A stretch of DNA of 48,484 nucleotides from an uncultured Candidatus Saccharibacteria bacterium. Its GTDB lineage: Bacteria; Patescibacteriota; Andersenbacteria; UBA10190. The DNA lies in NCBI GenBank assembly GCA_964359735.1, contig CAYHTZ010000007.1, positions 1-48,484 on the forward strand, given 5' to 3'. Below the pieces are notes generated by a model. The model worked only from the letters and a program-made list of their open reading frames with translations, had not been told where the DNA came from and did no database searches. Shown one piece after another: positions 35,149-35,999 of the stretch. The position numbers and the translations under genes were made by a program. The first letter of the stretch is position 1. Each line of letters starts with the position of its first letter.

Positions 35149-35174
35149 GGGTGTGTATAACTCGCGCAAAAACA

Positions 35175-35204
35175 TTGCGCACAAATATTTATTTTCTGTA
35201 CAAT
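35175..35204 (+). promoter_or_regulatory. Candidate sigma70 promoter for the basic sORF
   Basis: TTGCGC-N18-TACAAT; SD GGAGGT at 35223-35228, 7 nt before ATG 35236. Confidence 0.55.
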
Positions 35205-35235
35205 GGTAATATGAACTCGGAGGGAGGTGAGTAGT

Positions 35236-35334
35236 ATGCCAAAGCGTCGCAAGAAAGTTGCGAAGAAGCGAAAGACTGCTCGCCGAAAGAAAGGTGGCAA
35301 GAAAAAGAAATCTTCTCGCCGCAAGCGAAGATAA
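35236..35334 (+). CDS. 32-aa protamine/histone-H1-like ultra-basic protein
   Basis: MPKRRKKVAKKRKTARRKKGGKKKKSSRRKRR*; 22/32 K+R, no acidic residues; strong SD, promoter and terminator. Below the ORF-track length cutoff. Confidence 0.8.
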   Translation: MPKRRKKVAKKRKTARRKKGGKKKKSSRRKRR

Positions 35335-35347
35335 CGTTATTCGCAAC

Positions 35348-35379
35348 AAAAATCTCACTCACCCGAGTGAGATTTTTTT
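35348..35379. terminator. Bidirectional intrinsic terminator
   Basis: AAAAATCTCACTC-accc-GAGTGAGATTTTTTT between convergent genes. Confidence 0.9.
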
Positions 35380-35381
35380 GT

Positions 35382-35999
35382 TCAAACCAGCAATTGTTCT
35401 AAGTGCAAGTGAAACTTTTCTACTAGCTGCTGTGTGAGTTTGTTCTCTCGCAGCTGCTCTACAACGCCATTTACCTCCTCTGCGCTGCTCTGAGACAGGC
35501 CTATATCTAAAGATAGCTGCTGGCGTGAAGCCGCATCAGGCCGCCGCTTAAAGTAGCGCTGCAAGGTGTCGTGCCAGCGCTGTATTCCTTCGCGCGAGCT
35601 CACGTAGTATAGCTCCTCCTCGTAGATGGCAGAGAGCGAGCGCTGCACCAGATTCCAATCAGCAAAGAGATCATAGATGAGCTCGTCCTCGAGCAGCTTG
35701 ACCGCGTGGGGGACAAAGGGGTGCCAGGGGAGAGATTCTTTCATGTTCGCCTCCTGCCAAAATTTCTCGCGCGTAGCATCAATCCAGGCATGTACGCGCA
35801 TACCCGTGTCGAAATCATTTTTACCGACCAGCGAAGTAAGTCCCACGTTCTGCGGGTGAGTGCGGTGGCGGCTGATTAAACCCAGATGACGGATATCAGG
35901 AAATAGCGTGCCTGCCCAGTACCGGGAGTCAGAGACCTTACCCTCCAGGTGTTTGAGTAGCCGCGCCGCATATACGACATGCGCCACCTCCCCGGCCAT
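35382..35999 (-). CDS. Putative metal-dependent hydrolase (Zn-dependent phospholipase C-like)
   Basis: MAGEVAH, GTLFPDIRH, RTH, GMRVHAWID spacing. Start set to ATG 35999. Confidence 0.65.
   Translation of the reverse strand: MAGEVAHVVYAARLLKHLEGKVSDSRYWAGTLFPDIRHLGLISRHRTHPQNVGLTSLVGKNDFDTGMRVHAWIDATREKFWQEANMKESLPWHPFVPHAVKLLEDELIYDLFADWNLVQRSLSAIYEEELYYVSSREGIQRWHDTLQRYFKRRPDAASRQQLSLDIGLSQSSAEEVNGVVEQLRENKLTQQLVEKFHLHLEQLLV

What the first reader, a model, noticed from the sequence alone, without database searches (positions are those of the whole stretch)
35175..35379. Unannotated stand-alone transcription unit for a 32-aa protamine-like protein
Seen: promoter-like TTGCGC-N18-TACAAT, the clearest SD in the window (GGAGGT, 7-nt spacing), MPKRRKKVAKKRKTARRKKGGKKKKSSRRKRR (69% K+R, zero acidic) and a strong terminator. 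Most other first-in-unit genes here look leaderless, so this full SD architecture suggests selection for very high expression. Inference: a DNA-condensing nucleoid protein for an ultra-small cell, analogous to protamines or chlamydial histone-like proteins; alternatively an RNA-binding or ribosome-associated peptide.
Basis: partly seen in the sequence, partly recalled or inferred. Interest (0 to 1): 0.66.

Follow-up and report, generated by a model that had tools for sequence, protein, structure and literature searches.

The report
Conserved tiny polybasic protein gene
The 32-codon lysine/arginine-rich reading frame is a real, unannotated gene with strong expression signals. It is kept at the same chromosomal spot in at least 27 of 35 related ultra-small (Candidatus Andersenbacteria, CPR) genomes. 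It most likely makes a histone-H1-tail or protamine-like polycation that coats nucleic acids, but nobody has tested this.

Summary
The promoter-like hexamers, an 8-nt SD, the ORF at 35236-35334 (22 of 32 residues K/R, no acidic residues) and a strong terminator are all present.

The refutation test fails: the gene is conserved. A K/R/T/A-rich ORF of 32-98 aa lies between mpg/carS and a convergent 205-aa gene in at least 27 of 35 family genomes. It has no acidic, aromatic or Cys residues, usually starts MP(A)KK and ends ..RRKRR/KKK. Every copy inspected has an extended SD, and all 22 units whose 3' flank I read have a hairpin terminator. Length changes by in-frame 66/69-nt tandem repeats.

It belongs to no Pfam or NCBIfam family. 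Hits to Hc2 and H1-like models are sub-threshold and compositional. It is absent from a 15-billion-protein collection.

It is not a diverged HU, bL34, bL36, bL35, bL32 or bS21, which are all encoded elsewhere in the genome.

Best reading (about 0.55): a domain-less nucleic-acid-binding polycation, most likely nucleoid-associated. A ribosome- or RNA-associated role is not excluded (about 0.2).

New regulatory anatomy:
- A DnaA-box-consensus 9-mer sits upstream of the -35.
- Most relatives have a translated leader uORF that reads through the SD and stops just inside the polybasic ORF.
- Those relatives also carry a conserved CCACCUC complementary to the SD.
- The window has a collapsed 7-codon version of the uORF.

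The parts
35152..35160 (.). DnaA-box-consensus 9-mer TGTGTATAA (reverse complement TTATACACA, which fits TTATNCACA), 14 nt upstream of the -35
   Evidence: this is the only perfect box in the 48-kb window, and the 1.12-Mb genome holds 42 (0.037 per kb); relatives carry TGTGCATAA 4-5 nt upstream of the -35 in L002, L003, L005, L014 and L017. One-mismatch versions occur in L011, L144 and L145. dnaA and its own boxes lie on another contig.
35164..35180 (+). Inverted repeat GCGCAA-N5-TTGCGC. Its 3' arm is the -35-like hexamer TTGCGC (35175-35180).
   Evidence: Read directly. The -35 position is conserved as TTGCGC, TTGCAC, TTGCAT or TTGCGT in seven relatives.
35199..35204 (+). -10-like hexamer TACAAT, 18 nt after the -35
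   Evidence: The equivalent TTTAAT, TTCAAT, TGTAAT or TTAACT lies 16-17 nt after the -35 in relatives. The generic scan did not call it.
35211..35234 (+). 7-codon mini-uORF ATG AAC TCG GAG GGA GGT GAG TAG (MNSEGGE). It starts 6 nt after the -10, covers the SD and ends 1 nt before the main ATG.
   Evidence: Read directly. It resembles the start of the 27-57-codon leader uORF of relatives (MNEMFxGGET..). It looks like a deletion that fused the leader GGAGGGG element to the SD (inference).
35223..35230 (+). Extended Shine-Dalgarno GGAGGTGA
   Evidence: Relatives have GAGAGGAGGTGGTA 5-8 nt before the ATG.
35236..35334 (+). Polybasic micro-gene, 32 codons plus TAA
   Evidence: There are 28 distinct homologues of 32-98 aa.
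35275..35284 (+). ACTGCTCGCC, predicted to pair with GGTGAGTAGT (35226-35235: the 3' half of the SD plus the spacer)
   Evidence: Seen in the MFE and centroid fold. The duplex energy is -17.3 kcal/mol, p = 0.007 against codon shuffles. It is not significant in the synonymous-recoding test, so this part is tentative.
35348..35379 (.). Intrinsic terminator: an A-tract, a 13-bp hairpin and a T-run. It is usable from both strands, because the convergent gene ends at 35382.
   Evidence: All 22 homologous units whose 3' flank was inspected have a strong hairpin with a T-run right after the stop.

Best explanation
Window 35236-35334 is a genuine protein-coding micro-gene of a Candidatus Andersenbacteria (CPR/Patescibacteria) genome. 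It is transcribed from its own promoter (-35 at 35175, -10 at 35199), which has a DnaA-box-consensus site just upstream. It is translated from one of the strongest ribosome-binding sites in the genome and ends at a strong bidirectional terminator.

The product is a 32-residue, domain-less, intrinsically disordered polycation of about +22 net charge. Across the family it is built from only K, R, T, A, S, P, V, G and Q.

It most likely acts through charge. It would bind the phosphate backbone of nucleic acids, most probably chromosomal DNA, as a counter-ion and compaction factor. This is how the C-terminal tail of histone H1, chlamydial Hc2 and protamines work.

Shown here: the gene is real, conserved, positionally stable, repeat-length-variable and carries signals of strong expression.

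Inferred: translation, nucleic-acid binding, the choice of DNA over RNA, and any control by DnaA or by the upstream ORF.
For: Conservation:
- K/R-rich ORFs of 32-98 aa lie on the same strand between mpg/carS and the convergent 205-aa gene in at least 27 of 35 family genomes.
- No such ORF lies next to carS in the carS loci whose records or peptides place them outside this group, among 80 examined.

Coding signature:
- All copies keep the ATG, an 8-11-nt SD 5-8 nt upstream, an N-terminus MP(A)KK or MAKK, and a stop just before a terminator.
- Length changes by in-frame tandem repeats of 66 and 69 nt.

Composition:
- 28 distinct peptides are 53-70% K+R, with no D, E, aromatic residue, Cys or His.
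- It is unique in its own genome.

Signals of strong expression: the type IV pilin gene of relatives carries the same GAGGAGGTG extended SD.

Resemblance to known DNA-binding polycations: the only family-model hits, all sub-threshold, are Hc2 (PF07382, NF038052) and the Burkholderia histone-H1-like model NF038053.

A replication-linked cue: a perfect TTATNCACA box sits next to the promoter in the window and in six relatives. Background is 0.037 boxes per kb.

Not a known small ribosomal protein or HU: these are encoded elsewhere in the genome.

Similar MPAKKK.. micro-genes exist in three other CPR families.
Against:
- The resemblance to H1, Hc2 and protamine is compositional only, and no family threshold is met.
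- Polycations bind RNA and ribosomes as readily as DNA.
- HU is present as a canonical nucleoid protein.
- Eight of 35 family genomes gave no copy with my patterns. Some are fragmented MAGs, so this is not evidence of absence.
- The DnaA-box variant (TTATACACA or TTATGCACA) is not the variant that dominates this genome's boxes (TTATCCACA). It is also missing from the largest genus of the family.
Confidence: 0.55

Rival explanations
1. It is a ribosome- or RNA-associated polycation: either a lineage-specific tiny ribosomal protein in the manner of bS22, bL37, bTHX or eL41, or an RNA chaperone or condensate factor. It would neutralise rRNA or mRNA rather than DNA.
For: It is tiny, extremely basic and has expression signals comparable to those expected of ribosomal protein genes. 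One similar micro-gene in another CPR family lies beside bL25 and alaS. From general knowledge, CPR ribosomes lack some universal ribosomal proteins.
Against: Length varies threefold (32-98 aa) through tandem repeats, and mean column identity is only 29%. There are no hydrophobic or aromatic anchor residues. It has no similarity to bS22, bL37 or THX, or to any PDB chain including ribosomal proteins. It is not in a ribosomal operon. Its neighbours are recG, mpg and carS.
Confidence: 0.2
2. The frame is not translated. The conserved element would be a purine-rich small RNA, or a gene on the opposite strand, and the K/R ORF would be a by-product of composition.
For: Antisense frames are open as well, as expected for a frame lacking TTA, CTA and TCA. 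In one relative the deposited annotation called the antisense ORF. All HMM searches fail.
Against: An extended SD with an ATG at fixed spacing is present in every copy. The N-terminus is conserved, and every inspected copy stops just before the terminator. Repeat periods are multiples of 3. The antisense ORFs start inside the terminator and have no SD. No Rfam family matches.
Confidence: 0.05
3. It is an exported cationic peptide (antimicrobial, cell-penetrating or host-interaction), or a binder of anionic lipid or polyphosphate linked to the neighbouring CarS-like lipid enzyme.
For: Polycationic peptides can be membrane-active. CPR bacteria are often episymbionts. The gene lies next to carS in most of the family.
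Against: There is no signal peptide, no hydrophobic residue and no adjacent transporter or maturation gene. The gene has its own promoter. It keeps its place when carS leaves the locus in one genus. Similar genes in other CPR families have unrelated neighbours.
Confidence: 0.05
4. It is a Lys/Arg-sensing leader peptide of a transcription attenuator.
For: The arrangement of a short ORF rich in two amino acids followed directly by a terminator resembles his- or trp-type leaders.
Against: Nothing lies downstream on the same strand. The next gene is convergent and shares the terminator. ORF length varies from 32 to 98 codons. No anti-terminator alternative is evident.
Confidence: 0.02

Closest known systems
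Chlamydial histone H1-like protein Hc2 (HctB; Pfam PF07382, NCBIfam NF038052), and Hc1 (HctA)
   Same: Both are Lys/Arg/Ala/Thr-rich low-complexity polycations without acidic residues. Length polymorphism arises from in-frame tandem repeats (Hc2: PMC2848022; here). Translation of Hc1 is controlled post-transcriptionally (the IhtA sRNA on hctA, PMC3469542). Here a leader uORF and an SD-complementary segment suggest translational control.
   Different: Hc2 is 165-237 aa, whereas this protein is 32-98 aa. No model threshold is met: the best E-value is 0.047 for 4 of 15 homologues, and there is no hit for the window's peptide. There is no developmental cycle here. DNA binding is untested.
C-terminal tail of eukaryotic linker histone H1, and sperm protamines
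   Same: This is a free-standing or tail-like disordered polycation. Its size (about 30-60 aa) and basic content (53-70%) are in the protamine range. Ser and Thr are interspersed among the basic residues. If the DnaA box works, synthesis would be tied to replication, as it is for replication-dependent histones.
   Different: The resemblance is analogy, not homology. Lys (40%) exceeds Arg (20%). There is no Cys and no globular domain.
Other bacterial H1-like repeat proteins: Bordetella BpH1, Pseudomonas AlgP, the Burkholderia family NF038053, and the lysine-rich repeat tails of mycobacterial HupB/MDP1 and Ku
   Same: They share K/A/P/T repeat composition and a presumed electrostatic mode of DNA binding.
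   Different: Those proteins are longer or are tails on folded domains. NF038053 matched only 1 of 15 homologues at E = 0.004, below its cut-off.
Tiny polybasic ribosomal proteins (bS22, bL37, bTHX, eL41)
   Same: They share the 24-33-aa size class, extreme basicity and strong expression.
   Different: Those proteins have fixed lengths and conserved sequences. Here there is no similarity to them, and length and sequence are highly variable.
Translational coupling with long-range masking of a ribosome-binding site (for example phage MS2 coat-replicase), and DnaA acting as a transcription factor at single boxes near promoters
   Same: In relatives, an upstream ORF reads through the SD and ends 6-9 nt into the main ORF. 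A conserved CCACCUC inside the main ORF is complementary to the SD. A consensus DnaA box sits just upstream of the -35.
   Different: The masking segment lies downstream, within the regulated ORF itself. None of this has been tested experimentally. The window carries only a 7-codon remnant of the uORF and lacks CCACCUC.

Membership tests
Hc2 / HctB (PF07382, NF038052) | Score at or above the curated cut-off of the family model | tested here: not met
   The window peptide has no hit. Among 15 homologues the best is E = 0.047 (PF07382, 4 members) and E = 0.31 (NF038052, 2 members), below the cut-offs.
Hc2 / HctB (PF07382, NF038052) | Lys-rich low-complexity repeats whose copy number changes protein length | tested here: met
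   In-frame repeats of 66 nt x 2.9 copies and 69 nt x 2.3 copies. Lengths range from 32 to 98 aa.
Hc2 / HctB (PF07382, NF038052) | Binds and condenses DNA | not testable with these tools
   This needs EMSA, AFM or expression in E. coli K-12.
Histone H1-like DNA-binding protein, Burkholderia type (NF038053) | Score at or above the curated cut-off | tested here: not met
   One of 15 homologues matched at E = 0.0043. The window peptide had no hit.
Tiny polybasic ribosomal proteins (bS22, bL37, bTHX) | Recognisable sequence similarity and a fixed length | tested here: not met
   tblastn with bS22, bL37 and THX did not hit the locus. No PDB chain matched the peptide, and only sigma-factor low-complexity tails matched the profile. 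Length varies threefold.
Tiny polybasic ribosomal proteins (bS22, bL37, bTHX) | Stoichiometric component of the ribosome | not testable with these tools
   This needs ribosome purification or cryo-EM from a CPR bacterium.
Protamines (analogy only) | Small, free-standing, more than 50% basic, Arg-dominated, often with Cys | tested here: inconclusive
   Size and basicity fit (32 aa, 69% K+R). However, Lys exceeds Arg and there is no Cys. Homology is not expected.
Sigma-70-type promoter plus intrinsic terminator (stand-alone unit) | -35 and -10 hexamers at 16-18 nt spacing, and a G+C-containing hairpin followed by a T-run | tested here: met
   The terminator was called by the scan and folds at z = -7.4. 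The promoter falls below the scan's threshold, but its hexamer positions are conserved in seven relatives.
DnaA-regulated promoter | A TTATNCACA box at a fixed position next to the promoter | tested here: met
   A perfect box lies at 35152-35160. Perfect boxes lie in the same orientation just upstream of the -35 in five relatives. A sixth relative has one further upstream in the other orientation. Three more relatives have one-mismatch boxes. Background is 42 boxes per 1.12 Mb. The box is absent from genus g2.
DnaA-regulated promoter | DnaA binds and changes transcription | not testable with these tools
   This needs EMSA or footprinting with DnaA domain IV, plus reporter assays.
Translationally coupled leader uORF | An upstream frame kept open across variable sequence, with indels in multiples of 3 and a stop overlapping the main start | tested here: met
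   This holds for relatives. Nineteen of 25 units have the uORF. The ten distinct uATG-to-ATG distances are all 1 mod 3. The uORF frame has 0 stops against 34 and 20 in the other frames. The stop lies at +6 or +9, and at +18 in one unit. In the window itself only a 7-codon uORF ending 1 nt before the ATG remains, so its significance there is inconclusive.
Amino-acid-sensing leader peptide / attenuator | A regulated co-directional gene downstream of the terminator | tested here: not met
   The next gene is convergent and ends at 35382.

The most novel reading that the evidence does not exclude
Patescibacteria carry a phylum-wide, database-invisible class of genetically encoded, length-tunable polycations ('bacterial protamines'). 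These would be major counter-ions of the nucleoid in cells too small and metabolically poor to rely on polyamines. In Andersenbacteria their supply would be gated at two levels. A DnaA box at the promoter would tie synthesis to replication, as for replication-dependent histones. A translated leader uORF would have to melt an SD/anti-SD clamp before the polycation can be made.
Probability: 0.2. Interest if true: 0.8.

Novelty: new variant of a known kind. Interest (0 to 1): 0.62.

Why it matters
If the peptide is made at the level its signals suggest, it would be one of the most abundant molecules in a cell of about 0.01 cubic micrometres. Each molecule carries about +22 charges, so about 10,000 copies would neutralise roughly 10% of the phosphates of a 1.12-Mb chromosome (my arithmetic, not measured).

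Such genes are invisible to gene callers, HMM searches and tryptic proteomics. Nucleoid or ribosome inventories of CPR bacteria may therefore be missing a major component.

The family also offers a compact, testable model of translational control. It combines a leader uORF that reads through a near-perfect SD, an SD-complementary segment conserved at synonymous sites, and a DnaA-box promoter. All of these can be assayed with reporters in E. coli K-12 and with a synthetic 32-mer peptide.

Tried and rejected
**Searches and structure tests that gave nothing**
- **Profile and word-based homology searches.** They return nothing, or find only 5 of the known copies, because of low complexity. I switched to synteny and DNA-pattern searches.
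- **Exact look-ups of 10 peptides and their start variants.** None is on record. Only one antisense ORF of a relative is on record. The look-up of encoding contigs on CarS found nothing.
- **Rfam, at gathering and E-value thresholds, on the window and 17 loci.** No family matches the unit. Weak RsmY hits are below threshold.
- **RNAalifold on the leader alignment.** It gave no meaningful consensus. The ATGTTT..GGAGGGG..AAAC hairpin is compatible with the sequences but shows almost no covariation.
- **SD masking.** The duplex test against codon shuffles is significant in many units. The stricter synonymous-recoding MFE test is not: per-unit p ranges from 0.04 to 1.0. I therefore treat masking as suggestive only.
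- **First attempt at search for related loci.** The alignment was too divergent. I repeated it with five sequences.

**Hypotheses ruled out**
- **CsrA/RsmA control**, suggested by the GGA-rich hairpin and SD. Rejected because the genome has no CsrA or Hfq.
- **Diverged copy of HU, bL34, bL36, bL35, bL32 or bS21.** Rejected because all of these are present elsewhere.
- **Attenuator leader peptide.** Rejected because there is no downstream co-directional gene.
- **Origin of replication as the explanation for the DnaA box.** Rejected because dnaA, rpmH and their boxes are on contig C2.

**Not possible or not run**
- **Structure prediction of the peptide.** Not run, because it would not be informative for a polycation with no hydrophobic residues.

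Full report
**1. The observation**

- Promoter-like hexamers: TTGCGC (35175-35180), 18 nt, TACAAT (35199-35204).
- SD: GGAGGTGA (35223-35230), then 5 nt.
- ORF: ATG at 35236 to TAA at 35332-35334. It encodes MPKRRKKVAKKRKTARRKKGGKKKKSSRRKRR, with 22 of 32 residues K or R and no acidic residue.
- Terminator: a 13-bp hairpin (35348-35377) that runs into a T-run. It folds at -18.7 kcal/mol, z = -7.4 against shuffles.

This is not a chance ORF.

- In all six frames of the 1.12-Mb genome it is the only ORF of at least 20 aa with K+R >= 0.6.
- In the window it is the only place where an SD match of at least 8 nt is followed at proper spacing by a start codon and an ORF of at least 20 aa.
- Genome-wide that SD is in the top ~1%.

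The generic promoter scan did not call the promoter because the -35 matches only 3 of 6. Conservation supports it instead (section 4).

**2. Conservation and distribution**

The genome is a 1.12-Mb, 41-contig CPR assembly. Record titles of its relatives name Candidatus Andersenbacteria.

Profile searches are blind to this sequence, so I used synteny and DNA patterns.

- Downstream of the CarS-like gene (PF01864), on the same strand, 15 relatives carry an acid-free K/R-rich ORF.
- A carS-anchored scan of public genomes added three more, all from this group judging by record title or peptide. It found none beside the remaining carS loci of 80 examined.
- Pattern searches for the SD-ATG signature and for a leader element added the rest.

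In total at least 27 of 35 family genomes have the gene, giving 28 distinct peptides of 32-98 aa.

The wider neighbourhood recG - mpg - (carS) - small gene - convergent 205-aa gene is conserved. In one genus carS has left the locus while the small gene stays, so carS is a positional neighbour, not a partner.

The peptides use only K (40%), R (20%), T, A, S, P, V, G and Q. They start MP(A)KK or MAKK and usually end ..TTSRRKRR or ..KKK.

Length changes by in-frame tandem repeats: 66 nt x 2.9 copies and 69 nt x 2.3 copies.

Every copy inspected has an extended SD, usually GAGAGGAGGTGGTA. All 22 units whose 3' flank I read have a strong hairpin terminator right after the stop.

These are coding signatures on the + strand. 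The open antisense frames are a by-product of a frame without TTA, CTA or TCA, and they start inside the terminator.

None of ten peptides or their start variants is in a 15-billion-protein collection. In one relative the deposited annotation called the antisense ORF instead. 'Unannotated' therefore holds as far as it can be checked.

**3. What it is not**

- No Pfam or NCBIfam family matches the window peptide.
- Among 15 homologues the only hits are sub-threshold and compositional: Hc2 (PF07382, E = 0.047; NF038052, E = 0.31) and a Burkholderia H1-like model (E = 0.004).
- No PDB chain matches the peptide. The profile touches only the disordered K/A/T tails of actinobacterial sigma factors.
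- The genome encodes HU, bL34, bL36, bL35, bL32, bS21 and IF1 elsewhere. bS22, bL37 and THX queries find nothing at the locus.
- It is not an attenuator leader, because the next gene is convergent.
- No Rfam family covers it.

**4. Regulatory anatomy**

*Promoter.*

- Seven relatives share the layout -35 (TTGCGC, TTGCAC, TTGCAT or TTGCGT), 16-17 nt, -10 (TTTAAT, TTCAAT, TGTAAT or TTAACT).
- Five have TGTGCATAA 4-5 nt upstream of the -35. That is the reverse complement of TTATGCACA, a perfect TTATNCACA DnaA box.
- Three more have a one-mismatch version at that position.
- The window has a perfect TGTGTATAA at 35152-35160, 14 nt upstream of the -35. It is the only such box in the 48 kb, and the genome has 42 in all.
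- dnaA, rpmH and their own boxes are on another contig, so this is not the origin of replication.
- The box variant is not the genome's dominant TTATCCACA. The largest genus lacks the box altogether. DnaA control is therefore a lead, not a finding.

*Leader uORF (relatives).*

- In 19 of 25 units an upstream ORF of 27-57 codons starts at a conserved ATG.
- Its N-terminus is typically M-[NKRD]-E-[MV]-F-x-G-G-[EK]-T.
- It reads through the SD as ..RGGG.. and stops at +6 or +9 of the polybasic ORF (+18 in one unit). The TAA lies inside ATGCCnGCTAAG.
- The ten different distances from the uATG to the main ATG (76 to 160 nt) are all 1 mod 3.
- The uORF frame has no stop, against 34 and 20 stops in the other two frames.

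This is a clear signature that the leader is translated. The uATG has no SD. In some units a -10-like box lies 7-13 nt upstream, so it may be leaderless, but I could not fix the transcription start.

The conserved ATGTTTnnnGGAGGGGAAAC element inside the uORF can also form a hairpin. Its substitutions keep the purines rather than the amino acids. An RNA-level role is therefore also likely.

*SD-complementary segment.*

- All 18 units whose SD continues GGTGGTA have CCACCTC 13-29 nt before the stop. None of the seven other units has it.
- In that motif the Thr codons are ACC in 17 of 19 cases, against 24 of 147 elsewhere. The third base of the following Ser codon varies freely.
- One lineage nested among carriers lost both halves together and has GTGGAAC/GTTCCAC instead.
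- Duplex energies are -15 to -19 kcal/mol.
- The stricter synonymous-recoding fold test is not significant.

I rate SD masking as suggestive.

*Proposed sequence of events (inference).* The SD is clamped by the CCACCUC segment. A ribosome translating the uORF melts the clamp and terminates a few bases past the main AUG. This allows initiation or re-initiation on the polycation frame.

*The window's own version is collapsed.* TACAAT, 6 nt, then ATG(35211) AAC TCG GAG GGA GGT GAG TAG(35232-35234), 1 nt, then the main ATG. The 7-codon uORF (MNSEGGE) resembles the start of the long uORFs. The odd double SD GGAGGGAGGTG looks like a deletion between the leader GGAGGGG and the SD GGAGG (inference).

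The window lacks CCACCTC. Its fold pairs GGUGAGUAGU (35226-35235) with ACUGCUCGCC (35275-35284). That pairing is not significant in the recoding test.

**5. Function**

*For a DNA-bound role:*
- the H1/Hc2/protamine-like composition;
- tolerance of threefold length change, which fits a charge-only mechanism and is the way Hc2 varies (PMC2848022);
- strong expression signals: the type IV pilin gene of relatives carries the same GAGGAGGTG extended SD;
- the DnaA-box cue;
- a stable position among DNA-repair genes (recG, mpg).

*Against, or undecided:*
- HU is present;
- polycations bind RNA as well as DNA.

I put about 0.55 on a nucleoid-directed polycation, about 0.2 on a ribosome or RNA role, and about 0.9 on the gene being real and translated.

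**6. Known or new**

I found no paper on such a protein in CPR bacteria in the held library.

Earlier notes of this scan report similar polybasic micro-genes in other CPR lineages, some with DnaA-box promoters and structured leaders. Those are unchecked AI notes.

I tested them in part. A narrow pattern search over 301 genomes of the phylum found MPAKKK.. micro-genes of 15, 34 and 71 aa in three other families. One lies tail-to-tail with a gene whose N-terminal sequence motif looks like a PHP domain of the EndoQ type; I did not run a domain search on it.

Whether these are one family or convergent cannot be decided from such sequences.

I class the finding as a new variant of a known kind (bacterial H1/Hc2-like polycations). 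The uORF/anti-SD arrangement is the least precedented part.

Noticed in passing
Relatives: for example L015 (uATG at -109 from the main ATG), L005 (-97), L004 (-160), L144/L145 (-100). Window remnant: 35211-35234.: A translated leader uORF of 27-57 codons reads through the SD of the polybasic gene and stops 6-9 nt into it (18 nt in one unit). All uATG-to-ATG distances are 1 mod 3. The uORF frame has no stops, against 34 and 20 in the other frames.
   Followed up: partly
Relatives: 13-29 nt before the stop of the polybasic ORF in 18 units (for example L004, L005, L144). Not present in the window.: CCACCTC, the exact complement of the SD core GAGGTGG, is invariant including synonymous positions. 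It co-occurs perfectly with the SD variant GGTGGTA (18 of 18 against 0 of 7). The fold-based test of SD masking was inconclusive.
   Followed up: partly
Relatives: about 91 nt upstream of the main ATG in genera g2 and g3 (L127-L145). One copy per genome, and only in this family.: An invariant element ATGTT(T/C)nnnGGAGGGGAAAC can form a hairpin with a purine-rich, SD-like loop. Its substitutions preserve the purines rather than the amino acids. It has no Rfam match and almost no covariation.
   Followed up: partly
window 35385-35999 (- strand); homologues in 17 loci: The convergent neighbour that shares the terminator is a conserved 205-aa all-helical protein with invariant His, Asp and Trp residues. 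The model is confident (pLDDT 93, pTM 0.89). It has no Pfam hit, no PDB sequence hit and no PDB fold match (best E = 0.78).
   Followed up: partly
L011 (G004:C15), antisense to the 89-aa polybasic ORF: The only sequence from this locus type found in the public protein collection is a 107-aa antisense ORF (P0001, source NCBI). The wrong strand was annotated there.
   Followed up: yes
G000 contig C2: 83669 and 83684 (L116), outside the window: Two perfect TTATCCACA/TGTGGATAA boxes lie about 230 nt upstream of another gene with a top-strength SD. That gene encodes a 375-aa secreted-looking protein. A second pair lies between rpmH and dnaA at C2:33143 and C2:33179.
   Followed up: no
L117, L121, L123 (relatives): A type IV pilin-like gene (N-terminus ..KGFTLIELLVVIAIIGILAA) carries an equally extended SD, GAGGAGGTGAGG(G/A)T... 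This SD signature recurs in many genomes of the family.
   Followed up: no
L170, L171, L172 (other Patescibacteria families): SD-led MPAKKK.. polybasic ORFs of 34, 71 and 15 aa, each followed by a hairpin. L171 is built of AAKKP repeats and lies tail-to-tail with a gene whose N-terminal motif looks like a PHP domain of the EndoQ type (not checked by domain search). L170 lies between bL25 and alaS.
   Followed up: partly
L144, L145 (genus g3): carS is encoded elsewhere in these genomes, but the polybasic gene keeps its place between mpg and the 205-aa gene. It keeps its promoter, leader, uORF and CCACCTC intact.
   Followed up: yes
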